Source: a virus. From it: DNA of 15,557 bases. The notes beneath the pieces were generated by a model. That model searched no databases and had not been told where the DNA came from. It saw nothing but the letters and a program-made list of their open reading frames with translations. Location: UHGV virus genome UHGV-0274902; one strand, 5' to 3'. Positions within the stretch are counted from its first letter, which is position 1, and each line of letters starts with the position of its first letter. The position numbers and the translations under genes are program-made. This document shows positions 1-15,557 of this stretch, one piece after another.

Positions 1-160
1 AAAATGAAATGCCGACAATTACACAGAGGATCTTCGCCAGCGTTATGAGTTTGTCTGACATGCTTAATCCTCCCTTCACGATTTCAACGCAATGACCAGT
101 TTTGCCAGCCCATACAGCATCGGGGACACAGCAACACCGACATTGTCGGCATTTCATTTT
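1..160. repeat. Perfect 19-bp inverted repeat: 1-19 (aaaatgaaatgccgacaat) is the exact reverse complement of 142-160, spacer 20-141 (122 bp). The left arm is cut by the window start, so it may be longer
   Basis: Direct reverse-complement comparison in the sequence. A local near-palindrome ccgaca-t-tgtcgg (137-149) sits at the junction. Confidence 0.8.
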
Positions 161-242
161 CACTAATGCTGGTTGCTCTTTTTCTTTCCATGGCCTGGAT
201 GATGTTGTCTTCGTCGGGGCTGCTGGGGTGAACATAAACCGA

Positions 243-701
243 ATGCTTTCCGCGTTTATCGTTATTCTGCTGGTGGCCTGTGGAGCGCTGTGGATGGCAA
301 CAGACCATTACCGTGATAACGCGATTACCTACAAAGCGCAGCGCGATAACAAAGCCAGTGAACTGAAGCTGGCGAACGCAACCATTACTGATATGCAGGT
401 GCGCCAGCGCGATGTTGCTGCGCTCGATGCAAAATACTCGAGGGAATTAGCCGATGCGAGAGCTGAAAATGAAACTCTTCGCGCTGACGTTGCCGCTGGT
501 CGTAAGCGCCTGCGGATCAACGCCACCTGTCCAGGCTCCGTGCGTGAAGCCCCCACCACCTCCGGCGTGGATAATGCAACCGGCCCCAGACTGGCAGACG
601 CCGCTGAACGGGATTATTTCATCCTCAGAGAACGGTTGATGACAATGCAGAAGCAGCTGGAAGGGGCACAGCTATACATTCGTGAGCAATGCCTCAGATA
701 A
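243..701 (+). CDS. Rz: Spanin inner-membrane subunit (i-spanin), lambda Rz homolog
   Basis: Translation [65 protein letters not shown]... has an N-terminal TM segment then a periplasmic coiled-coil, closely matching lambda Rz as I recall it. Start may instead be GTG at 228, which overlaps the stop of an upstream frame as GTGA. Confidence 0.9.
454..639 (+). CDS. Rz1: Spanin outer-membrane lipoprotein (o-spanin), lambda Rz1 homolog, embedded in the +1 frame inside Rz
   Basis: [61 protein letters not shown] has a lipobox (LVVSAC) and the proline-rich [14 protein letters not shown] motif of lambda Rz1. AGGGA Shine-Dalgarno lies upstream of ATG 454. Confidence 0.9.
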
Positions 702-1036
702 AAACCGGCCAAGGATAATCCGCTGAAGATTTGCCGGTGGCTAAAGGGGCCAAGCCACCAATTTACGTAATTAGCCACAGAGATACAATATTTTAGTTTA
801 CTTATGTATTTCTGAAGCATGTCTTTGCGCAGTATCGTCGCCGTATTCCCACATGAACAGAGACCGCAGCCCTACCGGGAGACTCCTCTGCGCGAGTGTG
901 CGGGGATAATCAAAAACGATACACACCGGGGTTTACCGCGTTAACGGAGCGCGGCGTTGTCCCCTCATGGTCGCTGGTCCGGTGCGATGGTGGAAGAAAC
1001 TGGATTTTGTTGCAACTGACAATCATTATCATTTTG

Positions 1037-1230
1037 CCGGGTCCTTTCCGGCGATCCGGGCCGTTACGGGGCGGCGACCTCGCGGATTTTCACTATTTAT
1101 GAAAATTTTCCGGGATCCATGTCCGGTTTCTCTGCAAGTTAACCATATGAAAAATATAAAAACATGCTTTCCATGAACCGGACATGCGCAAAAAATAGAC
1201 ACTAAAACCGGACATGACCGGTTTTGTTGT
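1037..1230 (+). other. cos: cos packaging site: cosN 12-nt cohesive-end core GGGCGGCGACCT at 1069-1080, with lambda-like flanks and a downstream cosB-like region
   Basis: 1037-1110 (gggtcctttccggcgatccgggccgttacg|GGGCGGCGACCT|cgcggattttcactatttatgaaaattttccgg) is near-identical to the lambda right-end/left-end junction as I remember it. An A/T-rich stretch at 1141-1170 could be the IHF (I1) site. It lies directly upstream of nu1, as in lambda. Confidence 0.85.
1118..1216. repeat. Three copies of the 11-bp motif AACCGGACATG in cosB: inverted copy at 1118-1128 (CATGTCCGGTT), direct copies at 1176-1186 and 1206-1216. Candidate small-terminase binding sites (R3/R2/R1 analogues)
   Basis: Exact repeats seen in the sequence. 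One inverted copy, the A/T-rich block, then two direct copies mirrors the lambda cosB layout R3-I1-R2-R1, but the motif differs from the lambda R sites. Confidence 0.6.
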
Positions 1231-1263
1231 GATTGTGAGGTGAGAGTTTTTGCGAGGTGAGGA

Positions 1264-1773
1264 GTGGCTACGCAGACTGAAGTTGCCAGGCATTTAAGTC
1301 TGACCGATCGCCAGCTTCGCAGATTGCAGAAATTGCCGGGTGCCCCGATATCGAATAAGCGAGGGCAACTGGATCTGGATGCCTGGCGCGATTTTTACAT
1401 ATCGTATCTGAGAAGAAGTAAAAACGATGTGCCTGATGGCGATAGCGAAGACGACTATGAGGAGAAATTGCTTATTGCCAGATGGGAACTGACAGCAGAA
1501 CAGGCTGTTACACAGCAGTTAAAAAATGAGGTGTCAAAAGGAAAACTTATTGACACCGGGTTCTGTATTTTTGCCCTCAGCAAGCTGGCAATGGCGTTAT
1601 CCAGTACGCTTGATTCCATCCCTTTATCCATGCAGCGACAGTTTCCTGATTTAACACCGCGCCATCTTGACCATCTGAAAACCCTTATTGCGAAGGGGGC
1701 AAATCAGTGTGCGCGGGCGGGGGATAAATTACCGGATTTACTCGATGAATATATCAGAGCAACAACTGAATAA
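1264..1773 (+). CDS. nu1: Terminase small subunit, lambda Nu1 homolog
   Basis: GTG start preceded by GAGGTGAGGAG. N-terminal helix-turn-helix-like region, and the C-terminal part (IDTGFCIFALSKLAMALSSTLDSIPLSMQRQFPDLTPRHLDHLK...LPDLLDEYI) matches lambda gpNu1. Overlaps the start of A. Confidence 0.9.
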   Translation: MATQTEVARHLSLTDRQLRRLQKLPGAPISNKRGQLDLDAWRDFYISYLRRSKNDVPDGDSEDDYEEKLLIARWELTAEQAVTQQLKNEVSKGKLIDTGFCIFALSKLAMALSSTLDSIPLSMQRQFPDLTPRHLDHLKTLIAKGANQCARAGDKLPDLLDEYIRATTE

Positions 1774-3673
1774 TATGATGAGTGCTGTCACAACAGCATT
1801 ACAGCCCCTGATAAGGGCATTGCCGGTGACGCCAGTTGAATGGGCTGATCAAAATTATTATCTGCCTAAAGAATCTTCATATGGTGAGGGAGAATGGAAA
1901 ACGCTGCCGTTCCAGATCGCCATCATGAACAGCATGGGGAATGATCAGATCCGGACTGTTAATCTGATTAAATCTGCCCGTGTTGGCTATACAAAGATGT
2001 TGCTGGGAGTCGCCGGGTATTTTATTGAGCATAAATCCCGAAACAGTCTGCTTTTTCAGCCCACGGATTCTGCCGCTGAAGATTTTATGAAGTCTCACGT
2101 GGAGGCGACGATTCGCGATGTTCCCTGCCTGAAAAAACTTTCTCCCTGGCTGGGACGTAAACATCGTGATAATACCATCACGCTGAAACGCTTTTCATCG
2201 GGTGTGGGCTTCTGGTGCCTGGGCGGCGCTGCCGCCAAAAACTACCGTGAAAAATCCGTGGACGTGGTCTGCTATGACGAACTTTCCTCGTTCGAGCCGG
2301 ATGTCGAAAAAGAGGGCTCGCCAACCCTGCTGGGGGATAAGCGTATTGAGGGCTCGGTATGGCCAAAATCCATTCGCGGCTCGACGCCTAAAATAAAAGG
2401 CTCCTGCCAGATCGAAAAAGCGGCCAACGAGTCGGCGCATTTCATGCGTTTTTATGTGCCCTGCCCGCACTGTGGGGAGGCGCAGTATCTGAAATTTGGC
2501 GATGAGTCCACGCCTTTTGGCCTTAAATGGGAGAAGGACAGCCCCGAAAGCGTTTTCTACCTCTGTGAACATCATGGCTGCGTGATCCATCAGTCTGAGC
2601 TTGACCAGAGCAACGGGCGGTGGATCTGTGAAAACACGGGGATGTGGACCCGCGACGGTCTGACGTTTTTCAGCGCCGCGGATAATGAAATTCCGCCGCC
2701 GCGCTCCATCACATTCCATATCTGGACGGCGTACAGTCCGTTCACCACCTGGGTACAGATTGTCTATGACTGGCTGGATGCACTGAAAGATCCCAACGGC
2801 CTGAAAACCTTTGTGAACACCACGCTGGGCGAGACCTGGGAAGAGGCCGTGGGCGAAAAACTCGATCACCAGGTGCTGATGGATAAGGTTGTGCGTTACA
2901 CGGCTGCGGTGCCTTCCCGGGTGGTTTATCTGACGGCGGGCATTGACTCGCAGCGAAACCGTTTTGAGATGTATGTCTGGGGATGGGCTACGGGAGAGGA
3001 AGCCTTTCTGGTGGATAAAATCATCATTATGGGGCGTCCCGATGAGGAAGAGACGCTGTTACGTGTGGATGTGGCGATCAACAAAAAATACCGCCATGCA
3101 GACGGAACCGAAATGACCATTTCCCGTGTCTGCTGGGACACCGGGGGGATCGATGGCGAAATTGTCTATCAGAGGTCAAAAAAACACGGTGTTTTCCGGG
3201 TGCTGCCGGTAAAAGGTGCATCTGTTTATGGCAAGCCGGTGATCACCATGCCAAAAACCCGCAATCAGCGGGGCGTGTATCTGTGCGAAGTGGGGACGGA
3301 CACCGCAAAAGAAATTCTCTATGCCCGTATGAAAGCCGATCCCACGCCTGCGGATGAAGCCACGTCGTATGCCATCCGTTTTCCTGATGATCCGGAGATT
3401 TTTTCGCAGACAGAGGCGCAGCAACTGGTGGCGGAAGAGCTTGTGGAGAAGTGGGAAAAAGGAAAGATGCGTCTGCTGTGGGATAACAAAAAGCGGCGTA
3501 ACGAAGCGCTGGACTGCCTGGTGTATGCCTACGCGGCATTACGTGTGTCCGTGCAACGCTGGCAACTTGATCTGGCTGTACTGGCAAAATCCCGGGAAGA
3601 AGAGACGACCCGGCCAACCCTTAAAGAACTGGCAGCGAAGCTGTCCGGAGGAGTGAATGGTTACAGTCGCTGA
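1745..3673 (+). CDS. A: Terminase large subunit (ATPase/nuclease), lambda gpA homolog
   Basis: MNISEQQLNN...VEWADQNYYLPKESSYGEGEWKTLPFQ...KSARVGYTKMLLG...DELSSFEPDVEKEGSP...WTAYSPFTTWVQIV... aligns along its full length with lambda gpA. ATG at 1745 chosen by homology over the in-frame ATG at 1688. Confidence 0.95.
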   Translation: MNISEQQLNNMMSAVTTALQPLIRALPVTPVEWADQNYYLPKESSYGEGEWKTLPFQIAIMNSMGNDQIRTVNLIKSARVGYTKMLLGVAGYFIEHKSRNSLLFQPTDSAAEDFMKSHVEATIRDVPCLKKLSPWLGRKHRDNTITLKRFSSGVGFWCLGGAAAKNYREKSVDVVCYDELSSFEPDVEKEGSPTLLGDKRIEGSVWPKSIRGSTPKIKGSCQIEKAANESAHFMRFYVPCPHCGEAQYLKFGDESTPFGLKWEKDSPESVFYLCEHHGCVIHQSELDQSNGRWICENTGMWTRDGLTFFSAADNEIPPPRSITFHIWTAYSPFTTWVQIVYDWLDALKDPNGLKTFVNTTLGETWEEAVGEKLDHQVLMDKVVRYTAAVPSRVVYLTAGIDSQRNRFEMYVWGWATGEEAFLVDKIIIMGRPDEEETLLRVDVAINKKYRHADGTEMTISRVCWDTGGIDGEIVYQRSKKHGVFRVLPVKGASVYGKPVITMPKTRNQRGVYLCEVGTDTAKEILYARMKADPTPADEATSYAIRFPDDPEIFSQTEAQQLVAEELVEKWEKGKMRLLWDNKKRRNEALDCLVYAYAALRVSVQRWQLDLAVLAKSREEETTRPTLKELAAKLSGGVNGYSR

Positions 3674-3863
3674 ACTGCAGGCGCTGCGTCAGGCGCGCCT
3701 TGATTTATTAACCGGTAAACGGGTGGTGTCTGTCCAGAAAGATGGTCGCAGAATTGAATATACGGCGGCCTCTCTGGATGAGCTTAACCGGGCGATCAAT
3801 GATGCTGAGTTGGTACTGGGGACAACCCGCCGTCGCCGTCGTCCGCTGGGAGTGAGGTTATGA
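3657..3863 (+). CDS. W: Head-tail joining / head completion protein, lambda gpW homolog
   Basis: 68 aa; LTGKRVVSVQKDGRRIEYTAASLDEL matches lambda gpW. GGAGG Shine-Dalgarno; overlaps the end of A and the start of B. Confidence 0.9.
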   Translation: MVTVAELQALRQARLDLLTGKRVVSVQKDGRRIEYTAASLDELNRAINDAELVLGTTRRRRRPLGVRL

Positions 3864-5574
3864 AACGAAAGCCTGTCCTGATTGATGTGAACGGCGTTCC
3901 GCTTCGGGAGAGTCTCAGCTACAACGGGGGCGGTGCAGGATTTGGCGGGCAAATGGCAGAGTGGTTGCCACCCTCGCAGAGTGCCGATGCGGCCCTGCTG
4001 CCCGCGTTGCGTCTGGGGAATGCCCGTGCAGATGATCTGGTGCGCAATAACGGAATAGCGGCCAATGCGGTGGCCCTGCATAAGGATCACATTGTCGGGC
4101 ATATGTTTCTGATTAGCTACCGTCCGAACTGGCGCTGGCTGGGGATGCGGGAGACCGCGGCAAAAAGTTTTGTCGATGAGGTGGAGGCGGCCTGGTCAGA
4201 ATACGCAGAAGGGATGTTTGGTGAGATCGACGTGGAAGGGAAACGCACGTTTACGGAATTTATCCGTGAAGGTGTGGGCGTTCATGCGTTTAACGGCGAA
4301 ATCTTTGTGCAGCCGGTCTGGGATACGGAGAGCACGCAACTGTTTCGTACGCGTTTTAAAGCCGTGAGTCCGAAACGGGTGGACACGCCAGGACACGGTA
4401 TCGGGAACCGTTTTCTGCGGGCCGGGGTGGAGGTTGATCGATATGGCCGTGCCGTTGCGTACCATATCTGTGAGGATGATTTTCCTCGCTCCGGGAGTGG
4501 ACGATGGGAACGGATCCCGCGTGAACTTCCCACCGGGCGTCCGGCCATGCTGCATATTTTCGAGCCGGTGGAGGACGGGCAGACCCGTGGGGCCAACCAG
4601 TTTTACAGCGTCATGGAACGGCTGAAGATGCTCGATTCCCTGCAGGCAACACAGCTTCAGTCGGCCATTGTTAAAGCCATGTATGCAGCGACGATTGAAA
4701 GTGAACTTGATACCGAAAAGGCCTTTGAATATATCGCCGGCGCGCCACAGGAGCAGAAGGATAATCCGCTTATTAATATTCTGGAGAAGTTTTCCAGCTG
4801 GTATGACACGAATAACGTGACACTGGGCGGTGTCAAAATTCCGCACCTTTTCCCTGGTGATGATCTGAAACTACAGACTGCGCAGGATTCAGACAATGGA
4901 TTTTCTGCGCTTGAACAGGCGCTGCTGCGGTATATCGCCGCCGGTCTTGGCGTTTCCTACGAACAGTTGTCCCGTGATTACTCGAAGGTCAGTTATTCAA
5001 GTGCCCGCGCCTCCGCCAATGAGTCGTGGCGCTATTTTATGGGGCGGCGAAAATTTATTGCGGCCCGGCTGGCCACGCAGATGTTTTCCTGCTGGCTGGA
5101 AGAGGCACTTCTTCGGGGGATTATTCGTCCGCCACGGGCACGTTTTGATTTTTATCATCAGCACCAGCTCTTTCTCATACGTGCTCAGTCCGGCCTCAAT
5201 GCGCATCACTGATTCCTGGACTTCCTTGAGCCCGTCAATGGCCATTCTTCCGGCACCAATCCACTCTGCCCGTGACCAGGCTGATCGCGCCTGATAAAAA
5301 TCAAAACGTGCCCGTGGCGGACGAATAATCCCCCGAAGAAGTGCCTCTTCCAGCCAGCAGGAAAACATCTGTTGAGGCCGGACTGAGCACGTATGAGAAA
5401 GAGCTGGCGCTGATGGGCGAGGATTATCAGGACATTTTCCGCCAGCAGGTCAGGGAATCTGCTGAGCGGCAAAAAGCCGGACTCTCACGTCCGGTGTGGA
5501 TAGCGCAGGCGTATCAGCAGCAGATAGCGGAGAGTCGCAGGCCGGAAGAGGAGACAACACCACGTGAGACGTAA
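3860..5574 (+). pseudogene. B: Portal protein gene, lambda gpB homolog, disrupted by an internal inverted duplication. Collinear N-terminal part 3860-5155 (reading frame stops at 5212); C-terminal part resumes at 5374-5574
   Basis: 3860-5155 encodes a gpB-like sequence ending ...MFSCWLEEALLRGIIRPPRARFDFY, then runs into reverse-complemented sequence and stops. The next portal segment (QARSAWSRAEWIGAGRMAIDGLKEVQESVMRIE) is encoded on the minus strand at 5293-5195. The gpB-like C-terminus EAGLSTYEKELALMGEDYQDIFRQQVRE... is back on the + strand from 5374. Confidence 0.8.
5078..5415. repeat. Nested inverted-repeat complex inside B. IR1: 5078-5155 = reverse complement of 5294-5371 (78 bp, perfect). 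IR2: 5156-5199 = reverse complement of 5372-5415 (44 bp, one mismatch at 5163/5408). Unique core 5200-5293
   Basis: Base-by-base reverse-complement comparison. Net structure is A + rc(A-m-B') + B', where A-m-B' is the inferred collinear portal segment. Confidence 0.9.
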
Positions 5575-7069
5575 TCTTTCACACATTATTGCAGCAGCAT
5601 TCAATGAACCGCTGCTTCTGGAGCCCGCCTATGCGCGGGTTTTCTTTTGCGCGCTCGGGCGCGAGATGGGGGCAGCAAGTCTTTCGGTACCACAACAGCA
5701 GGTACAGCTTGATGCACCCGGAATGCTGGCTGAAACGGACGAGTACATGGCCGGAGGTAAACGACCGGCCCGTGTTTACCGGGTGGTGAACGGTATTGCT
5801 GTACTGCCGGTGACAGGCACGCTGGTGCACCGGCTGGGGGGTATGCGGCCATTTTCCGGAATGACAGGCTATGACGGCATTGTCGCCTGTCTTCAGCAGG
5901 CAATGGCGGATAGCCAGGTGCGGGGCGTACTGCTGGACATTGACAGTCCGGGCGGGCAGGCCGCCGGTGCGTTTGACTGTGCTGACATGATTTACCGCCT
6001 CCGTCAGCAGAAGCCGGTCTGGGCACTGTGCAATGACACGGCCTGTTCTGCAGCCATGCTGCTGGCGTCGGCCTGCTCCCGACGGCTGGTTACCCAGACA
6101 TCCCGTATCGGCTCCATTGGCGTGATGATGAGCCATGTCAGCTATGCCGGTCATCTGGCGCAGGCCGGTGTGGATATCACGCTGATTTACTCAGGGGCGC
6201 ACAAGGTGGATGGCAATCAGTTTGAAGCGTTGCCGGAAGAGGTTCGCCAGGACATGCAGCAGCGGATTGATGCGGCGCGCCGGATGTTTGCCGAAAAAGT
6301 GGCGATGTATACCGGTCTGTCTGTTGATGCAGTCACGGGAACAGAGGCCGCCGTTTTTGAAGGTCAGTCCGGCATTGAGGCCGGGCTGGCGGATGAATTA
6401 ATCAATGCGTCGGATGCCATCAGCGTGATGGCTGCGGCGCTGAACACACATGATACAGGAGGCACTATGCCGCAATTAACTGCAACGGAAGCTGCCGCGC
6501 AGGAGAACCAGCGAGTGATGGGGATCCTGACGTGTCAGGAAGCGAAAGGACGTGAACACCTTGCCACGATGCTGGCAGGACAACAGGGCATGAGCGTTGA
6601 ACAGGCCCGGGCGATTCTGACCGCGGCAGCACCACAGCAGCCGGTGGCATCCACGCAGAGTGAAGCCGATCGCATTATGGCGTGTGAAGAGGCTAAAGGT
6701 CGTGAACAACTGGCGGCAACGCTGGCGGCGATGCCGGAGATGACGGTGGAAAAAGCCCGCCCGATCCTGGCGGCTTCACCGCAGGCGGATGCCGGACCCT
6801 CACTCCGTGATCAGATTATGGCTCTGGATGAGGCAAAAGGGGCTGAGGCGCAGGCTGAAAAACTGGCGGCGTTTCCCGGAATGACGGTGGAGGCTGCCCG
6901 CGACATTCTCTCCTCATCGCCGGATAAAGCAGAACCGGTTTCTGCATCCACAACCGCCATGTTTGAACGCATCATGGCGAACCATTCACCGGCAGCCGTG
7001 CAGGGTGGCGTGTCACAGACGTCGGCAGACGGTGATGCGGACGTGAAAATGCTCATGGCCATGCCATGA
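5564..7069 (+). CDS. C: Prohead protease / minor capsid protein (S49 ClpP-like family), lambda gpC homolog, with an extended repeat-containing C-terminus
   Basis: GTG start with GAGGAG upstream. AAFNEPLLLEPAYARVFFCAL...GMTGYDGIV...LLDIDSPGGQAAGAFDCADMIY...KPVWALCNDTACSAA...RRLVTQTSRIGSIGVMMSH...ITLIYSGAHKVDGN matches lambda gpC. Confidence 0.9.
   Translation: MRRNLSHIIAAAFNEPLLLEPAYARVFFCALGREMGAASLSVPQQQVQLDAPGMLAETDEYMAGGKRPARVYRVVNGIAVLPVTGTLVHRLGGMRPFSGMTGYDGIVACLQQAMADSQVRGVLLDIDSPGGQAAGAFDCADMIYRLRQQKPVWALCNDTACSAAMLLASACSRRLVTQTSRIGSIGVMMSHVSYAGHLAQAGVDITLIYSGAHKVDGNQFEALPEEVRQDMQQRIDAARRMFAEKVAMYTGLSVDAVTGTEAAVFEGQSGIEAGLADELINASDAISVMAAALNTHDTGGTMPQLTATEAAAQENQRVMGILTCQEAKGREHLATMLAGQQGMSVEQARAILTAAAPQQPVASTQSEADRIMACEEAKGREQLAATLAAMPEMTVEKARPILAASPQADAGPSLRDQIMALDEAKGAEAQAEKLAAFPGMTVEAARDILSSSPDKAEPVSASTTAMFERIMANHSPAAVQGGVSQTSADGDADVKMLMAMP
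6467..7069 (+). CDS. nu3: Scaffolding protein, lambda Nu3 analogue, translated in frame from an internal start within C
   Basis: Internal ATG 6467 preceded by AGGAGG (6457-6462), same frame as C. This mirrors the lambda nu3 start, which as I recall lies at a GGAGG-containing SGGRM inside C (here TGGTM). Product carries the tandem IMxxxEAKGxE...GMTVExAR modules. Confidence 0.65.
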   Translation: MPQLTATEAAAQENQRVMGILTCQEAKGREHLATMLAGQQGMSVEQARAILTAAAPQQPVASTQSEADRIMACEEAKGREQLAATLAAMPEMTVEKARPILAASPQADAGPSLRDQIMALDEAKGAEAQAEKLAAFPGMTVEAARDILSSSPDKAEPVSASTTAMFERIMANHSPAAVQGGVSQTSADGDADVKMLMAMP

Positions 7070-7105
7070 AGTCAGTGCTGACCATCAATATGAGGTTTTA
7101 ACAAA

Positions 7106-7453
7106 ATGGTGACGAAAACCATCACTGAACAACGTGCGGAAGTACGTATTTTTGCCGGTAATGATCCGGCTCATACCGCCACAGGCAGCAGCGGGATTTC
7201 TCAGGCAACACCGGCACTGACGCCCCTGATGCTGGATGAAGCCAGCGGGAAACTGGTGGTCTGGGACGGACAGAAAGCCGGTAGTGCGGCTGGCATACTG
7301 GTACTGCCGCTTGAAGGCACAGAGACGGTGCTGACGTATTACAAGTCGGGGACCTTTGCGACGGAGGCAATCCGCTGGCCTGAAAGAGTGGATGAACACA
7401 AAAAGGCCAACGCCTTTGTCGGCACAGCCCTGAGTCACGCGGCGCTGCCGTAA
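7106..7453 (+). CDS. D: Head decoration protein, lambda gpD homolog
   Basis: DPAHTATG...TPLMLDEASGKLVVWDG...GILVLPLEG...TYYKSGTF matches lambda gpD. Confidence 0.92.
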   Translation: MVTKTITEQRAEVRIFAGNDPAHTATGSSGISQATPALTPLMLDEASGKLVVWDGQKAGSAAGILVLPLEGTETVLTYYKSGTFATEAIRWPERVDEHKKANAFVGTALSHAALP

Positions 7454-7510
7454 CACGTTATCAGGCCACCGCGTTGGCCTGACTGATTTCTGAATGAAAG
7501 GAACTGATTT

Positions 7511-8539
7511 ATGGGATTGTTTACGACCCGCCAGTTACTCGGTTATACCGAACAAAAAGTTAAATTCCGTGCGCTGTTTCTGGAGCTGTTTTTCCGCCGT
7601 ACGGTGAATTTCCACACCGAAGAGGTGATGCTGGACAAAATTACCGGAAAAACGCCGGTGGCAGCCTATGTCTCCCCGGTTGTTGAAGGAAAAGTGCTTC
7701 GCCATCGCGGTGGTGAAACCCGCGTGTTACGTCCGGGCTACGTCAAGCCCAAACACGAATTTAATTACCAGCAGGCGGTTGAGCGCCTTCCTGGTGAAGA
7801 TCCGGCTCAGCTGAATGACCCGGCCTACCGTCGTCTGCGTATCATTACCGATAACCTCAAACAGGAAGAGCACGCCATTGTCCAGGTGGAAGAAATGCAG
7901 GCGGTGAATGCCGTGCTGTATGGCAAATACACCATGGAAGGGGATCAGTTTGATACTGTCGAGGTGGATTTCGGGCGCTCTGAAGGAAATAACATTGAGC
8001 AGGCTGACGGTAAAAAATGGTCTGAGCAGGACCGTGATACGTTTGATCCGACGCATGATATTGACCTCTACTGCGATCAGGCCAGCGGCCTTGTGAATAT
8101 CGCCATTATGGACGGTACGGTCTGGCGTCTGCTGAATGGCTTTAAGCTGTTCCGCGAAAAACTGGATACCCGTCGCGGCTCAAATTCACAACTCGAAACG
8201 GCAGTGAAAGACCTGGGGGCGGTGGTGTCCTTCAAGGGGTATTACGGCGATCTGGCCATTGTGGTGGCGAAAACGTCTTATGTGGCAGAGGACGGTACCG
8301 AAAAACGTTATCTGCCGGAGGGCACACTGGTCCTGGGGAATACGGCAGCAGAGGGCATTCGTTGCTATGGTGCCATTCAGGATGCGCAGGCGTTGTCCGA
8401 AGGTGTGGTGGCCTCTTCCCGTTATCCGAAACACTGGCTGACTGTGGGCGATCCGGCCCGTGAATTCACCATGACGCAGTCCGCTCCGCTGATGGTGCTG
8501 CCGGATCCGGATGAGTTTGTGGTGGTACAGGTGAAATAA
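7511..8539 (+). CDS. E: Major capsid protein, lambda gpE homolog
   Basis: 342 aa; PGYVKPKHE, DPAYRRLRII, VEEMQAV, KLDTRRGSNS.LETAVKDLG, TVGDPAREFTMTQSAPLM match lambda gpE along the full length. Confidence 0.95.
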   Translation: MGLFTTRQLLGYTEQKVKFRALFLELFFRRTVNFHTEEVMLDKITGKTPVAAYVSPVVEGKVLRHRGGETRVLRPGYVKPKHEFNYQQAVERLPGEDPAQLNDPAYRRLRIITDNLKQEEHAIVQVEEMQAVNAVLYGKYTMEGDQFDTVEVDFGRSEGNNIEQADGKKWSEQDRDTFDPTHDIDLYCDQASGLVNIAIMDGTVWRLLNGFKLFREKLDTRRGSNSQLETAVKDLGAVVSFKGYYGDLAIVVAKTSYVAEDGTEKRYLPEGTLVLGNTAAEGIRCYGAIQDAQALSEGVVASSRYPKHWLTVGDPAREFTMTQSAPLMVLPDPDEFVVVQVK

Positions 8540-8546
8540 TCCGTGA

Positions 8547-8576
8547 GCGGGGGCGAAATGCCCCCGTGTCTTTTTT
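8547..8576 (+). terminator. GC-rich hairpin followed by a T6 run immediately downstream of E (intrinsic-terminator-like; possibly an mRNA-stabilising stem-loop)
   Basis: Stem 8548-8554 / 8560-8566 (cgggggc / gcccccg), loop gaaat, then gtc + tttttt (8571-8576). Confidence 0.45.
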
Positions 8577-8590
8577 CACAGGAGGCTGAG

Positions 8591-8974
8591 ATGGCAACAA
8601 AAGAAGAAAATCTGAATCGTCTTCGTCAACTGGCTGGCCTGCTGGGGCGCGAGGCGGATATGTCGGGGAGTGCTGCGGATATTGCTCAACGTGTGTCTGA
8701 GTGGGAAGAGGAGCTTGCTGTTTCCCCGGAGGGCATTATGCACTCTGATGAGAGCGGGGCTGATCAAAATCACACAGACGATGGTGAGCAGTTGAACAAC
8801 ACGGATGCTCCGGATGATGTTAAAGCCGTCCGGGTACGGAAGTGCCTGCAAGTAATGGGGTATTGCCCGGAGACAGGTCGTCCCGTTGAGCTGGCGTTAC
8901 GGGGTATGCGTGTTCTGGTGCCATCATCACTGGCAACGGCCATGATACAGCACGGAACGGCTGAATATGCGTGA
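8591..8974 (+). CDS. FI: DNA packaging / head assembly protein, lambda gpFI homolog
   Basis: ATG 8591 preceded by GGAGG. Acidic central region and C-terminal ...VELALRGMRVLVPSSLATAM... resemble lambda gpFI. Position between E and FII matches. Confidence 0.8.
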   Translation: MATKEENLNRLRQLAGLLGREADMSGSAADIAQRVSEWEEELAVSPEGIMHSDESGADQNHTDDGEQLNNTDAPDDVKAVRVRKCLQVMGYCPETGRPVELALRGMRVLVPSSLATAMIQHGTAEYA

Positions 8975-9320
8975 TTTTCAGAATGCCTTTGATGCTGCCC
9001 TCGCCGGGGTGGACAGTACGATCGTTGAAGTGATGGGGATCCGTGCGCAGTTCACCTCGGGGGCACAGTGTGGCAGCGAAGTTCAGGGGGTTTTTGACGA
9101 TCCGGAGTCGCTGGGGTTTGCCGGTGGCGGGGTCCGTATTGAAGGAAGCAGCCCGTCATTATTTGTGCGGACGGATACGGTTCGTGCCGTGCGGCGTGGT
9201 GACACGCTGACCATTAATGGTGAGATATTCTGGGTGGATCGTGTTTCTCCGGATGACGGGGGCAGCTGTTATCTCTGGCTCAACCGTGGTCAACCACCCG
9301 CAGTTAACCGGCGACGATAA
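8967..9320 (+). CDS. FII: Head-tail connector protein, lambda gpFII homolog
   Basis: 117 aa; GVFDDPE, VRIEGSSPSLFVRTD, RRGDTLTI, FWVDRVSPDDGGSC.LWL.RG.PPAVNRRR are near-identical to lambda gpFII. Confidence 0.95.
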   Translation: MRDFQNAFDAALAGVDSTIVEVMGIRAQFTSGAQCGSEVQGVFDDPESLGFAGGGVRIEGSSPSLFVRTDTVRAVRRGDTLTINGEIFWVDRVSPDDGGSCYLWLNRGQPPAVNRRR

Positions 9321-9335
9321 ACGCAGGGTGAAATT

Positions 9336-9869
9336 ATGGCGATAAAAGGGCTTGATCAGGCGATTGACAATCTGAGCCGGGTTCGTAAAAACGCCATTCC
9401 GGCGGCTTCAGCAATGGCCATTAACCGCGTGGCCACAACGGCGATTAATCAGTCTTCATCACAGGTTGCCCGGGAGACAAAGGTTCGCCGGAAACTGGTT
9501 AAGGAACGGTCCAGACTGAAACGGGCGACGGTCAGAAATCCGAATGCCAGAATTATCGTTAACCGCGGTGATCTCCCTGTGATTAAGCTGGGGATCAGGA
9601 TGCTGGGGCGTCGCCCGAACAGCATACTTAAAGCCGGTCAGCATCGGTATCAGCGGGCATTTATTCAGCGATTAAAAAATGGTCGCTGGCATGTCATGCA
9701 GCGTGTGGCCGGGAAAAACCGTTACCCCATTGATGTGGTGAAAATCCCGATGGCGGCCCCACTGAAACAGGCATTTGATGAGAATGTTGACCGTATCCGG
9801 CGTGAACGCCTGCCTAAAGAACTGGCATACGCGCTGAAACAACAACTGAGGATTGCGATAAAACGATGA
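9336..9869 (+). CDS. Z: Minor tail protein (tail terminator region), lambda gpZ homolog
   Basis: MAIKGLDQAIDNLSRV...AMAINRVA...SQVARETKVRRKLVKERSRLKRATV...LKNGRWHVMQRVAGKNRYPIDVVKIPMA...RIRRERLPKEL matches lambda gpZ. Confidence 0.93.
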   Translation: MAIKGLDQAIDNLSRVRKNAIPAASAMAINRVATTAINQSSSQVARETKVRRKLVKERSRLKRATVRNPNARIIVNRGDLPVIKLGIRMLGRRPNSILKAGQHRYQRAFIQRLKNGRWHVMQRVAGKNRYPIDVVKIPMAAPLKQAFDENVDRIRRERLPKELAYALKQQLRIAIKR

Positions 9870-10261
9870 AACACACTGACATTCGTGCCGCAGTGCTGGA
9901 TGCACTCGAGCAGCATGAACACGGGGCGACGCTGTTTGATGGTCGCCCCGTTGTTTTTGACGAAGAGGATTTTCCTGCGATCGCGGTTTATCTGACGGAT
10001 GCAGAGTATACCGGTGAAGAGCTGGATGCAGATACCTGGCGGGCCACACTGCATATTGAGGTGTTTTTACCGGCACAGGTACCTGATTCGGAGCTCGATC
10101 AGTGGATGGAAAGCCGGATTTATCCGGCGATGACTGCGATCCCTGCACTGGCAGGACTGATTACCACGATGGTTACGCAGGGCTATGAGTATCGTCGTGA
10201 TGACGATATGGCGTTATGGAGCTCTGCGGATCTGACTTATTCCATTACATACGAGATGTGA
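9866..10261 (+). CDS. U: Tail terminator protein, lambda gpU homolog
   Basis: 131 aa; [17 protein letters not shown]...[15 protein letters not shown]...[25 protein letters not shown]...RRDDD...[13 protein letters not shown] matches lambda gpU. Confidence 0.95.
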
Positions 10262-10268
10262 GGACGAT

Positions 10269-11021
10269 ATGGCAACACCAAATCCCCTGGAGCCGGTAAA
10301 AGGTGCCGGTACCACTCTGTGGGTTTACAACGGCAAGGGTGATGCTTATGCAAACCCGTTGTCAGACGATGACTGGCAGCGACTGGCTAAGGTGAAGGAT
10401 CTGACGCCGGGCGAGATGACGGCAGAACCCTACGATGATAACTACCTGGATGATGAAGACGCGGACTGGACCGCGACCGGGCAGGGGCAGAAGTCTGCAG
10501 GAGATACCAGTTTTACGCTGGCCTGGAAACCGGGAGAAGATGGTCAGAAAGGGCTTATAGGCTGGTTTGAAAGCGGGGATGTGCGGGCCTATAAAATCCG
10601 TTTTCCGAACGGCACGGTGGATGTGTTTCGTGGCTGGGTCAGCAGTATCGGTAAGGCCGTGACGGCGAAAGAAGTGATCACCCGCACGGTGAAAGTGACC
10701 AACGTGGGCAAACCTTCCGTGGCGGAAGAACGCAGCAAAATTACGCCGGTCACTGCAATTAAGGTGACACCGACATCCGGTACCGTGGAAAAAGGAAAAA
10801 CAACCACCCTGACGGTTTCTTTTGAGCCGGAAAGTGCAACCGACAAGACGTTCAGAGCGGTTTCCGCCGATCCGTCAACGGGAACCATTGCTGTGAAAGA
10901 TATGGTGATCACTGTGACGGGGATTAAGGCCGGAAAAGTGAGTATCCCCGTGATTTCCGGTAATGGTCAGTTTGCCACGGTAGCTGAAGTCACCGTTACT
11001 GAAGCGGGCGCTGCAGGGTAA
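10269..11021 (+). CDS. V: Major tail tube protein, lambda gpV homolog, with a C-terminal Ig-like domain
   Basis: 250 aa; [75 protein letters not shown] match lambda gpV. Confidence 0.95.
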
Positions 11022-11034
11022 ACGGAGGTAATAC

Positions 11035-11466
11035 ATGTTTCTGAAAACAGAACAATTTGAATATAACGGTGTATCCGTCATGCTTTCTGAGCTGTCTGCG
11101 CTGCAGCGTATTGAGCATCTTGCCCTCCTGAAACGGCGGGCAGAAGAGGCTGAAGCCAGCGGCAACCTGCAGGTGAGTGTGGAAGATCTTGTCAGAACCG
11201 GCGCGTTTCTGGTGGCGATGTCCCTGTGGCATAACCATCCGGAGAAAGTGCAGCTGCTGTCAATGAATGAGGCCGTGATGCAGATCGAACAGGATGTGCT
11301 GACGACCTGGCCGGCTGATGCCATTGCCCGGGCGGAAGAGGTGGTGTTACGTCTGTCCGGGATGAGCGGGGCTGTTCATGCGGATACTGACAGCACCGAA
11401 GTGGCGAAAAATAACGCGCTTACTGATGATGATTTTTCTGCGGGAAAGTTTTCGACGGCGAGCTGA
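11035..11466 (+). CDS. G: Tail assembly chaperone, lambda gpG homolog
   Basis: MFLKTEQFEYNGVSVMLSELSALQRIEHLALLKR...GAFLVAMSLWHNHPEK...SMNEAV.QIEQDVLTTWP matches lambda gpG. Ends just after the slippery site. Confidence 0.93.
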   Translation: MFLKTEQFEYNGVSVMLSELSALQRIEHLALLKRRAEEAEASGNLQVSVEDLVRTGAFLVAMSLWHNHPEKVQLLSMNEAVMQIEQDVLTTWPADAIARAEEVVLRLSGMSGAVHADTDSTEVAKNNALTDDDFSAGKFSTAS

Positions 11467-11906
11467 ATTTTGCCCTCAGACTGGCGCGTGAGATGGGGAG
11501 GCCTGACTGGCGCGCCATGCTTGCCGGGATGACATCCACCGAATATGCCGACTGGCGACATTTTTACCGCACGCATTATTTTCAGGATACCCAACTGGAT
11601 ATGCATTTTTCCGGGCTGATGTACGCCGTACTCAGCCTGTTTTTTTGCGATCCGGATATGCATCCCTCGGATTTCAGTCTGCTGGCTCCCCGGCGAGAGG
11701 AAGCGCAGACGGAGATGCCGGATGAGGAAGACATGCTGATGCAGAAAGCGGCAGGACTTGCCGGAGGCGTCCGGTTCGGTGGGGAGGGAGGGGGCGATAT
11801 TTCACCTTCTGCAGATGTGGTGGATGTCAGCGAGGATGATGTTGCATTAATGATGGCTTCAGCGGGGATTTCCGGAGGTGTGAGATATGTCCCAGCCGGT
11901 TGGTGA
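11035..11906 (+). CDS. T: Tail assembly chaperone fusion (gpG-T) made by a programmed -1 ribosomal frameshift at the G_GGA_AAG heptamer (11442-11448). The T-specific part is 11448-11906
   Basis: Slippery heptamer GGGAAAG in the G zero frame (gcg GGA AAG). After a -1 shift the frame reads ...ELNFALRLAREMGRPDWRAMLAGMTSTEYADW..., matching lambda gpT. The T frame has no independent start near the junction. Confidence 0.85.
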
Positions 11907-14460: not shown

Positions 14461-14786
14461 AAACCTTTCGCTGGAAAGTGAAACCGGATATGGAGGTGAA
14501 CTCGCAGCCATCGGTGCGTGAAGTGCGTTTTGGTGACGGGTACTCACAGCGTATGGCGGCAGGGCTGAATGCTGACCTGAAAACATACCGGGTGATGCTT
14601 TCCGTGACCCGGGAGGAGGCCCGTCATCTGGAAGCGTTCCTGGCAGAGCACGGTGGCTGGAAGGCATTTTTGTGGAAGCCACCCTATGCATACCGGCAGA
14701 TAAAGGTGACCTGTGCCGGGTGGTCTGCGCGGGTCGGGATGTTGCGCGTTGAGTTCAGCGCGGAGTTTAAGCAGGTGGTGAACTGA
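14457..14786 (+). CDS. M: Minor tail protein, lambda gpM homolog
   Basis: 109 aa; MKTFRWKVKP.M.V.S.PSVR.VRFGDGYSQR...LKTY.V.LSV.REEA..LE.FL.EHGGWK.FLW.PPY..RQIKVTCA.WS.RV.MLRVEFSAEF.QVVN is near-identical in pattern to lambda gpM. Confidence 0.95.
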   Translation: MKTFRWKVKPDMEVNSQPSVREVRFGDGYSQRMAAGLNADLKTYRVMLSVTREEARHLEAFLAEHGGWKAFLWKPPYAYRQIKVTCAGWSARVGMLRVEFSAEFKQVVN

Positions 14787-15472
14787 TGCAGGATATTCAC
14801 GAAGAAAGTCTGAACGAGTCGGTTAAATCAGAGCAGTCACCGCGGGTGGTGCTCTGGGAAATCGACCTGACGGTACAGGGCGGTGAGCGGTATTTTTTCT
14901 GCAATGAGCTGAATGAAAAAGGGGAGCCGGTCACCTGGCAGGGGCGGCAATATCAGGCGTACCCGATTGAGGGCAGCGGCTTTGAGATGAACGGAAAGGG
15001 CAGCAGTGCCAGACCGTTGCTGACGGTGTCCAATCTGTTTGGTCTTGTCACCGGAATGGCGGAGGATTTGCAGAGCCTGGTGGGGGCCACGGTGGTCCGC
15101 CGCCGGGTGTATGCCCGTTTTCTGGATGCGGTGAATTTCGTTGCGGGCAATCCGGAAGCGGACCCGGAGCAGGAGCTGAGTGACCGCTGGGTGGTGGAGC
15201 AGATGTCGCAGCTGACAGCCATGACGGCCTCGTTTGTGCTGGCCACACCGACCGAGACGGACGGGGCGCTGTTTCCCGGTCGTATCATGCTGGCGAACAC
15301 CTGTATGTGGACCTACCGCTCTGATGAGTGTGGTTACACGGGCGGGGCTGTGGCGGATGAGTTCGATAAACCCACCACGGATATCCGTAAGGACAGATGC
15401 AGCAAGTGCATGCGCGGGTGTGAACTGCGCAGGAATGTCGGCAATTCCACATACAGGTGTTCGCCAGCATGA
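14786..15472 (+). CDS. L: Minor tail protein, lambda gpL homolog, with an aberrant 3' end. gpL-like sequence runs to 15445, then the frame enters an inverted copy of 15200-15311 and stops at 15472
   Basis: MQDIHEESLNE...VVLWEIDLT..GGERYFFCNE.NEKGEPVTWQGRQYQ.YPI.GSGFE.NGKG.S.RP.LTVSNL.G.VTGMAED.QSLVG.TVVRR.VYARFLDAVNFV.GN matches lambda gpL through ...RNVGN. The last ~12 residues expected from lambda are replaced by STYRCSPA, which is encoded by the fold-back copy. Confidence 0.85.
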   Translation: MQDIHEESLNESVKSEQSPRVVLWEIDLTVQGGERYFFCNELNEKGEPVTWQGRQYQAYPIEGSGFEMNGKGSSARPLLTVSNLFGLVTGMAEDLQSLVGATVVRRRVYARFLDAVNFVAGNPEADPEQELSDRWVVEQMSQLTAMTASFVLATPTETDGALFPGRIMLANTCMWTYRSDECGYTGGAVADEFDKPTTDIRKDRCSKCMRGCELRRNVGNSTYRCSPA

Positions 15473-15557
15473 TACGACCGGGAAACAGCGCCCCGTCCGT
15501 CTCGGTCGGTGTGGCCAGCACAAACGAGGCCGTCATGGCTGTCAGCTGCGACATCTG
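15200..15557. repeat. Perfect inverted repeat at least 112 bp long: 15446-15557 is the exact reverse complement of 15200-15311, spacer 15312-15445 (134 bp). Cut by the window end
   Basis: Base-by-base reverse-complement comparison. The minus strand of 15446-15554 re-encodes the gpL segment MSQLTAMTASFVLATPTETDGALFPGRIMLANTCMW. Confidence 0.9.

What the first reader, a model, noticed from the sequence alone, without database searches (positions are those of the whole stretch)
5078..5415. Portal gene B interrupted by a perfect fold-back (inverted triplication-like) rearrangement
The gpB-like frame is collinear to 5155. It is followed by the reverse complement of the next ~216 bp of portal sequence (5156-5371 on the minus strand encodes ...RARFDFY-QARSAWSRAEWIGAGRMAIDGLKEVQESVMRIE-AGLSTYEKEL), and then by the forward C-terminal portal sequence from 5372. 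The structure is A + rc(A-m-B') + B', with a 78-bp perfect inverted repeat (5078-5155 / 5294-5371) and a 44-bp inverted repeat with one mismatch (5156-5199 / 5372-5415). As written the portal is truncated after ~432 collinear residues, so the phage could not package DNA. A single inversion between either repeat pair would not restore the frame. This is the signature of a two-step replication template switch, or of a chimeric amplification/assembly artefact. I see no recombinase gene in the window that would suggest a programmed inversion switch.
Basis: seen in the sequence. Interest (0 to 1): 0.75.

Follow-up and report, generated by a model that had tools for sequence, protein, structure and literature searches.

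The report
Strand-switch chimera in phage portal gene
The portal gene of this lambda/phage-21-like prophage really is interrupted by a 216-base inverted copy of its own sequence. The same kind of strand switch also sits at both ends of the contig and nowhere else in public data, so it is most likely a sequencing or assembly chimera and not a biological rearrangement.

Summary
Window 5156-5371 is the reverse complement of natural portal sequence. This creates an 80-nt perfect inverted repeat and a 44-nt inverted repeat with one mismatch. The portal is cut after 432 collinear residues, and the net insertion is 122 bp.

The window is otherwise base-identical (0 mismatches over 13.4 kb) to a collinear metagenome contig with an intact 530-aa portal.

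None of 5,426 complete E. coli genomes, 50,697 phage records, 72,556 plasmids, IMG/VR, GTDB representative genomes or JGI metagenomes contains the novel junction.

- Positions 1-141 are the inverted upstream neighbour of position 142.
- Positions 15446-15557 are the reverse complement of 15200-15311.

All four junctions jump only 122-172 nt, have 0-2 nt of microhomology, and have no counterpart in relatives. The only private base (5163) lies 8 nt from a junction.

One technical cause explains all three events: chimeric strand-switched molecules or reads that were built into a contig. I rate this about 0.8 likely. A genuine in vivo "3-1-4-2" template-switch mutation is possible (about 0.13) but leaves the terminal fold-backs unexplained. 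A programmed inversion is excluded. Raw reads would settle the question.

The parts
3860..5212 (+). Truncated portal (gpB-like) ORF: 432 collinear residues plus 18 out-of-context residues, then a stop.
   Evidence: Pfam PF05136 Phage_portal_2 matches residues 29-397, E = 8e-101. Relatives encode 530 aa.
5078..5155 (+). Arm A, the forward natural copy (78 nt, or 80 nt to 5157 counting the 2-nt junction overlap).
5156..5371 (-). Inverted 216-nt segment, the reverse complement of natural A-m-B'. It divides into 5156-5199 rc(B'), 5200-5293 rc(m) (the only copy of m) and 5294-5371 rc(A).
   Evidence: It aligns to L002 3529-3314 on the opposite strand with 1 mismatch. Translation of the minus strand gives natural portal residues.
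5155..5156 (.). Junction J1: natural a1 joined to the reverse complement of b1, a 138-nt jump with 2 nt of microhomology (CA).
   Evidence: The junction string is absent from IMG/VR, GTDB genomes and JGI metagenomes.
5163..5163 (.). The only base not shared with the 100%-identical relative L002 over the part of the window that L002 covers (1765-15557). It is A where the reverse complement of the natural sequence gives G, which changes Ala to Val in the inverted copy. It lies 8 nt from J1.
   Evidence: all 11 relatives carry the natural base; none of 2,989 portal copies in 1,843 E. coli records carries the variant.
5371..5372 (.). Junction J2: the reverse complement of a0 joined to natural b0, a 172-nt jump with 0 nt of microhomology.
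   Evidence: The junction string is absent from IMG/VR.
5372..5574 (+). Natural portal 3' coding remainder. B' is 5372-5415, followed by the C-terminal codons, now detached from the N-terminal part. It overlaps the start of the protease/scaffold gene at 5564.
1..141 (-). Inverted terminal segment at the 5' end of the window. It is the reverse complement of the 141 nt that in relatives lie immediately upstream of, and overlap by 19 nt with, position 142 onward. Junction J0 is at 141|142, a 122-nt jump with 0 nt of microhomology.
   Evidence: 100% to L011, L013 and L018 on the opposite strand; 0 of 5,426 genomes span the junction, and alignments begin at position 142.
142..160 (+). The 19-nt forward arm that pairs with 1-19.
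15200..15311 (+). The natural source of the 3' terminal fold-back, inside the tail gene L.
15446..15557 (-). Inverted terminal segment at the 3' end of the window, the reverse complement of 15200-15311 and 100% identical to L002. Junction J3 is at 15446|15447, a 135-nt jump back with 1 nt of microhomology. It truncates gene L to a chimeric 228-aa product.
   Evidence: 0 of 5,426 genomes span the junction, and alignments end at position 15446.

Best explanation
The window is a complete contig of an ordinary phage-21/lambda-like prophage late region (Rz, Nu1, A, W, portal, protease, D, E ... H, M, L). Its natural sequence is intact in other samples. During sample processing, some DNA molecules or reads switched strand over short distances (122-172 nt), and these chimeric sequences were built into the contig: twice in the portal gene (J1 and J2) and once at each contig end (J0 and J3). 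Shown: the geometry, the uniqueness of the junctions, the existence of an identical collinear version, and the junction properties. Inferred: that the chimeras arose in vitro or in silico. Possible routes are polymerase strand switching during amplification or library preparation, or mates of read pairs joined end to end without reverse-complementing. In either case an assembler with large k would have kept them where natural coverage was thin, for example by retaining low-count k-mers that bridge solid k-mers within one read. The apparent portal pseudogene is therefore not a property of the phage.
For: (1) There are three strand-switch events and four junctions in 15.5 kb, and two of them run exactly to the first and last base of the window.
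(2) L002, an independent MEGAHIT gut-metagenome contig, has 0 mismatches to 1765-5157 and 5372-15446 and is collinear with a 530-aa portal. All other contigs carrying the same tape-measure protein are collinear at this site, and all but Logan contig L007 encode the 530-aa portal where the gene is complete.
(3) No junction occurs anywhere else. For each of the three regions, 0 of 5,426 complete E. coli genomes holds the rearranged form, as do 0 phages and 0 plasmids. The J1 and J2 strings are absent from IMG/VR, and J1 is also absent from GTDB genomes and JGI metagenomes. The chimeric proteins are absent from a collection of 15 billion proteins.
(4) All four jumps fall in a narrow band (122, 138, 172 and 135 nt). 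Microhomology is at chance level (0, 2, 0 and 1 nt), and relatives have no pre-existing inverted repeat at the switch points. This points to one common cause.
(5) The only base not shared with L002 lies 8 nt from J1 and is seen in none of 2,989 portal copies. The chance of that position is about 0.004. This is as expected if that stretch rests on a single chimeric molecule.
(6) Canonical k-mers are unique only for k >= 113, and the 5' inverted segment is exactly 141 nt, which is MEGAHIT's default largest k and the k in the names of relatives' contigs.
(7) All other genes are intact, so there is no sign of an old defective prophage.
(8) The literature shows that inverted short-range chimeras are frequent in amplified DNA (about 1 per 10-22 kb), can have high depth, and do enter assemblies (PMC1855051; PMC4595205; bioRxiv 10.64898/2026.06.11.730069). 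MEGAHIT keeps 'mercy' k-mers that lie between solid k-mers within one read (PMC7299287).
Against: The source record, its reads and its library method could not be found, so nothing here shows read support directly. The junction sequences cannot be produced by graph traversal alone, so real chimeric molecules or reads must have existed. For the internal event they had to outcompete the natural path, which is easier to explain if the DNA really is rearranged. Classic MDA chimeras nearly always show at least 2 nt of junction complementarity (93.5% of proximal inverted ones, with a peak at 5-8 nt), and here only 1 of 4 junctions does. The specific technical route therefore remains unidentified. 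Ten other contigs of this prophage show no fold-back ends, so the artefact is not universal.
Confidence: 0.8

Rival explanations
1. This is a genuine in vivo mutation. A single switch-and-return replication template switch (four-point model, type 3-1-4-2), or equivalently an inversion with staggered breaks, replaced the 94-nt spacer with a 216-nt inverted copy in the portal gene of a prophage in one lineage and inactivated it very recently. The terminal fold-backs would then be unrelated assembly noise.
For: The geometry matches type 3-1-4-2 exactly, with an inverted spacer and two new inverted repeats (PMC5453318). The contig runs through both junctions without a break, which is what a large-k assembler does for real DNA. 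A de novo substitution 8 nt from J1 could reflect error-prone synthesis at a switch. The junction k-mers must have existed in molecules, because there is no k-1 overlap.
Against: No second occurrence was found in any collection. Microhomology is 0-2 nt, with no quasi-palindrome to seed a switch. This reading needs a separate explanation for two further strand switches of the same size class at the contig ends. At 216 nt the copied fragment looks large for this class (my own recollection; not checked here). The type makes up about 1% of events even in human-chimp data.
Confidence: 0.13
2. This is a pure assembler misjoin with no chimeric reads: an unsafe unitig, or a bidirected-graph walk that turns back on itself at low coverage.
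For: Low coverage is known to produce misassembled unitigs in MEGAHIT and SPAdes even with error-free reads (PMC9528984). The window carries signatures of a large-k de Bruijn assembly.
Against: Such joins need a shared (k-1)-mer, at least 20 nt at the smallest usual k, between the two joined sequences. The four junctions share only 0-2 nt, and relatives have only 4-6 nt of chance complementarity nearby.
Confidence: 0.04
3. This is a programmed invertible DNA switch, or a natural polymorphism, of the portal gene.
For: The inverted repeats flank an inverted segment.
Against: The repeats are absent from all relatives; 1,874 genomes match this portal region and none holds the rearranged form, so they are products of the event and not pre-existing sites. 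No recombinase lies among the 20-odd late genes. Neither orientation gives a functional portal.
Confidence: 0.01

Closest known systems
Four-point template-switch mutations, type '3-1-4-2' (Löytynoja & Goldman 2017, PMC5453318)
   Same: The order of switch points is identical (a0 < a1 < b0 < b1). [quoted passage not shown] The spacer is inverted and two new inverted repeats are created.
   Different: The copied fragment is 216 nt. There is no evidence of inheritance or of a second occurrence. Two more half-events lie at the contig ends. The source is probably not in vivo replication.
phi29 MDA inverted chimeras (Lasken & Stockwell 2007, PMC1855051; Tu et al. 2015, PMC4595205)
   Same: The joins are inverted in orientation and intramolecular over short range. 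The density is on the order of one junction per few to 20 kb. Molecules with several junctions occur, and the chimeras can enter assemblies.
   Different: Junction complementarity of at least 2 nt is reported in 93.5% of proximal inverted MDA chimeras, with a peak at 5-8 nt. Here it is 0, 2, 0 and 1 nt. The jump distances here (122-172 nt) are tighter than the broad MDA distribution, which peaks at 250-300 nt.
Inversions flanked by inverted duplications from staggered double-strand breaks (described for Drosophila inversion breakpoints; recalled from my own knowledge, not checked here)
   Same: The product X-A | rc(A-m-B') | B'-Y is exactly what fill-in of two staggered breaks plus re-ligation of the flipped middle piece would give. 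Blunt joins need no microhomology.
   Different: Staggers of 78 and 44 nt and blunt end-joining are not a known pathway in E. coli. This model also does not explain the terminal fold-backs.
Tandem inversion duplication / DUP-TRP/INV-DUP (inverted triplication)
   Same: A forward copy, an inverted copy and another forward copy of overlapping sequence lie in a row.
   Different: The central spacer m is present only once, and only the flanks are duplicated, so this is not a triplication. It would fit only as a remodelled form after two junction deletions.
Library-preparation inverted-repeat chimeric reads (e.g. nanopore ligation libraries, PMC13141652)
   Same: These are artificial reads that join the two strands of one locus.
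   Different: As I understand them (not checked in the paper), they are whole-read fold-backs turning at the molecule end with no skipped loop. Here the turns skip 122-172 nt, and one event switches back.

Membership tests
Lambda-family phage portal protein (Pfam PF05136) | Match to the Phage_portal_2 profile above the curated cut-off | tested here: met
   338 bits against a cut-off of 32.9, covering residues 29-397. The reconstructed 530-aa protein equals that of relatives.
Four-point template switch, type 3-1-4-2 | The inserted fragment is the exact reverse complement of adjacent reference sequence | tested here: met
   216 nt, 215 of 216 identical to the opposite strand of L002 3314-3529.
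Four-point template switch, type 3-1-4-2 | Order of switch points 3 < 1 < 4 < 2 on the reference | tested here: met
   a0 = 3314, a1 = 3391, b0 = 3486, b1 = 3529 in L002 coordinates.
Four-point template switch, type 3-1-4-2 | A heritable in vivo mutation, present in the source DNA and supported by independent reads or lineages | not testable with these tools
   No reads are available, and no second occurrence was found in any collection.
phi29 MDA inverted chimera | Second segment inverted, with the two segments close together on the genome | tested here: met
   all four joins are inverted, with 122-172 nt jumps.
phi29 MDA inverted chimera | Priming at short complementary sequence (>= 2 nt in 93.5% of proximal inverted chimeras; mode 5-8 nt) | tested here: not met
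   0, 2, 0 and 1 nt. The probability of at most one junction with >= 2 nt under the published rate is about 0.001.
phi29 MDA inverted chimera | The sample was amplified by MDA | not testable with these tools
   The source record was not found.
Programmed DNA inversion switch | Inverted repeats are conserved recombination sites present in relatives | tested here: not met
   none of the 1,874 genomes matching this region holds the rearranged form; the collinear relative has no duplicated canonical 21-mers.
Programmed DNA inversion switch | An invertase or recombinase is encoded nearby | tested here: not met
   only lysis, terminase, head and tail genes are present.
Programmed DNA inversion switch | Inversion toggles between functional states | tested here: not met
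   both inversions still give truncated portals.
Tandem inversion duplication / inverted triplication | Three copies of the same segment with the middle one inverted | tested here: not met
   spacer m (5200-5293) is single-copy.
Graph-only misassembly (unsafe unitig) | The joined sequences share a (k-1)-mer at the join | tested here: not met
   the overlap is 0-2 nt.

The most novel reading that the evidence does not exclude
The internal event is a real, very recent in vivo replication template switch (type 3-1-4-2, 216-nt copied fragment, essentially no microhomology) that knocked out the portal of an otherwise intact lambdoid prophage. It would be an unusually large and clean bacterial example of this mutation class, and a route to prophage inactivation that could revert by an inversion followed by a deletion between the resulting direct repeats.
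Probability: 0.12. Interest if true: 0.4.

Novelty: not a real feature. Interest (0 to 1): 0.1.

Why it matters
This matters mainly as quality control. Taken at face value, the contig would be annotated as a defective prophage with a portal pseudogene and a truncated tail gene L, and its fold-back ends could be mistaken for inverted terminal repeats. Showing that a base-identical collinear version exists elsewhere, and that the contig has the same strand-switch signature at both ends, gives a simple, reusable test for such chimeras: look for further strand switches at the contig termini and for junction-proximal private bases. If the rearrangement were real, it would be a modestly interesting example of a large template-switch mutation in bacteria.

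Tried and rejected
(1) Tracing the source. Exact look-ups of the truncated portal, the chimeric L protein and two small ORFs found nothing. The junction strings were not found in IMG/VR, GTDB genomes or JGI metagenomes, nor in E. coli, phage or plasmid records.
(2) The idea that the inverted copy came from a second, slightly different prophage allele. Rejected, because the variant base at 5163 occurs in none of 2,989 portal copies.
(3) Classic MDA chimeras as the specific cause. Orientation, distance and density fit, but junction complementarity does not. MDA is kept only as one possible route.
(4) A graph-only misjoin. Rejected, because there is no shared k-1 overlap.
(5) Pre-existing quasi-palindromes seeding a switch. 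Local complementarity of 4-6 nt matches the random-pair control.
(6) A programmed inversion. Rejected.
(7) A literature search for documented fold-back contig ends in MEGAHIT, SKESA or virome assemblers found nothing specific.
(8) The hypothesis that the junctions are R1+R2 mates joined end to end. This would explain blunt joins and the narrow 122-172 nt band as insert size minus read length, but it could not be tested without reads. The unequal terminal segment lengths (141 and 112 nt) neither support nor exclude it.
(9) Showing that 142-1764 is free of private bases. The best complete genome is only 99.8% identical there, so the 'only private base' statement is limited to 1765-15557.

Full report
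**What is in the sequence.** The window is the late region of a phage-21/lambda-like prophage: Rz, small and large terminase, W, portal, S49 protease/scaffold, D, E, FI, FII, Z, U, V, G/T, tape measure, M and L. This comes from the ORF list, Pfam, the gene tables of relatives and the phage hits. Inside the portal gene, the repeat finder reports a perfect 80-nt inverted repeat (5078-5157 / 5292-5371) and a 44-nt inverted repeat with one mismatch (5156-5199 / 5372-5415).

The reverse complement of 5156-5371 begins with the 5078-5155 sequence and ends with the 5372-5415 sequence. The layout is therefore X-A | rc(A-m-B') | B'-Y, with A = 78 nt, m = 94 nt and B' = 44 nt. As written, the portal ORF (3860-5212) has 432 collinear residues followed by 18 unrelated ones. 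Undoing the rearrangement removes 122 bp and gives a 530-aa portal. Its statement that neither single inversion restores the gene is also correct. An inversion followed by a deletion between the resulting direct repeats does regenerate the collinear sequence exactly.

**The collinear form is the natural one, and a base-identical copy exists.**
- Megablast of 4900-5600 finds matches in 1,874 of 5,426 complete E. coli genomes. None covers the rearranged form, and the best hits span 579 bp where the query spans 701 bp.
- The same holds for 50,697 phage records and 72,556 plasmids.
- Contigs that encode the identical tape-measure protein were fetched. Wherever the portal gene is complete it encodes 530 aa, except in Logan contig L007.
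- One of these contigs, L002 (ENA ERZ27272572, contig k141_15350), has 0 mismatches to window 1765-5157 and 5372-15446.
- The window therefore equals a known natural sequence plus rearrangements, with no other decay. All other genes are intact.

- Whole-window alignments to relatives always run from 142 to 15446.
- The last 112 nt (15446-15557) are the exact reverse complement of 15200-15311.
- The first 141 nt are the exact reverse complement of the DNA that, in four independent genomes, lies directly upstream of and overlaps by 19 nt with position 142.
- No complete E. coli genome spans either terminal junction. Alignments stop exactly at 142 and at 15446.
- Both inverted segments run to the first and last base, and 15,557 is an odd length. 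The window is therefore very probably a whole contig carrying three strand-switch events and four junctions (J0, J1, J2, J3).

**Properties of the four junctions.**
- The jumps are 122, 138, 172 and 135 nt.
- Microhomology is 0, 2, 0 and 1 nt, which is what blunt random joins give.
- Natural sequence has no inverted repeat at the switch points beyond the 4-6 nt seen for random position pairs.
- The junction sequences therefore cannot come from a graph walk through a shared k-mer. That route is the known way to get misassembled unitigs at low coverage (PMC9528984). They must have existed in reads or molecules.
- Over the part of the window that L002 covers (1765-15557), the only base that differs from L002 is 5163, 8 nt inside the inverted segment. 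All 11 relatives and all 2,989 portal copies in E. coli genomes carry the natural base. The chance that a random base lies that close to a junction is about 0.004.
- Canonical k-mers of the window are unique only for k >= 113. The 5' inverted segment is exactly 141 nt, which is MEGAHIT's default largest k and the k in the names of several related contigs. This fits a contig that starts at a natural 141-mer node and leaves it along a chimeric branch. This last step is inference.

**Best explanation.** A single technical cause accounts for all three events. Short-range strand-switched chimeric molecules or reads were incorporated into the contig where natural coverage was thin, and they also formed its dead-end tips.
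- The literature shows that inverted, proximal chimeras are the dominant artefact of phi29 amplification. They occur about once per 10-22 kb, can carry several junctions, can reach high depth, and get into assemblies (PMC1855051; PMC4595205; bioRxiv 10.64898/2026.06.11.730069).
- MEGAHIT retains low-count 'mercy' k-mers that bridge solid k-mers within one read (PMC7299287).
- I cannot name the exact route. Classic MDA is disfavoured by the lack of junction complementarity: 93.5% of proximal inverted MDA chimeras have at least 2 nt, with a mode of 5-8 nt.
- The blunt joins and the narrow jump band would fit read mates joined end to end (jump = insert size minus read length), but this cannot be tested without reads.
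- I put the artefact class as a whole at about 0.8.

**Rivals.**
- A genuine in vivo template switch fits the internal geometry perfectly. It is the '3-1-4-2' type of the four-point model, which inverts the spacer and creates two inverted repeats (PMC5453318). It would also explain why the contig runs through both junctions, and perhaps the junction-proximal substitution. However, it has no second occurrence anywhere, no seeding microhomology, and it leaves two same-sized strand switches at the contig ends to coincidence. I rate it at about 0.13.
- A graph-only misjoin is rated at about 0.04 and is contradicted by the missing overlaps.
- A programmed inversion switch is excluded. The repeats are absent from relatives, there is no recombinase, and neither orientation is functional.

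**What could not be done.**
- The source record could not be located. The truncated portal and the other chimeric products are not in the gene-position index or the 15-billion-protein collection.
- The junction strings are not in the DNA collections.
- Read depth, library type and assembler are therefore unknown, and they are what would decide the matter.

**Verdict.** Interest is low. If it were shown to be real, it would be a moderately interesting large template-switch mutation.

Noticed in passing
window 1-160: The 5' end of the window is itself a strand switch. Positions 1-141 are the reverse complement of the natural upstream neighbour, which overlaps 142-160 by 19 nt. This disrupts a small 43-aa ORF found upstream of Rz in relatives. 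The inverted segment is exactly 141 nt, which equals MEGAHIT's default largest k.
   Followed up: yes
window 15200-15557: The 3' end of the window folds back: 15446-15557 is the reverse complement of 15200-15311, with a 134-nt loop. This truncates tail gene L to a chimeric 228-aa product.
   Followed up: yes
window junctions 141|142, 5155|5156, 5371|5372, 15446|15447: All four strand-switch jumps fall within 122-172 nt (mean about 142). This narrow band is unexplained. It could reflect insert size minus read length, or a physical length scale of polymerase strand switching.
   Followed up: partly
L007 (Logan ERR1790821_54) 2400-2415, corresponding to window 3662-4214: This related Logan contig lacks about 550 bp, covering gene W and the start of the portal gene. 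The gene table lists a 655-aa terminase product and a 412-aa portal. Identity to the window drops from 99.3% to 95.4% across the join, which suggests a mosaic or k=31 assembly join.
   Followed up: no
L014 (ENA ERZ28762363 contig_2) 10482-15687: The terminase, portal and protease genes are each split into two ORFs in this 4.4-Mb contig, a pattern typical of indel errors in a long-read assembly and unlike the rearrangement studied here.
   Followed up: no
window 702-1263: The stretch between Rz and the small terminase gene, where the cos region is expected, is mosaic among relatives. Window 826-1004 matches at only 80-94%, and relatives carry different small genes there (Bor, TonB_C, PerC, DUF3950).
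   Followed up: no
window 14900-15450 (gene L): Several independent metagenome contigs of this prophage (L005, L006, L009, L010) end within this stretch, at window-equivalent positions 14906-15217. This suggests a strain or prophage mosaic boundary that breaks assemblies near where this contig ends.
   Followed up: no
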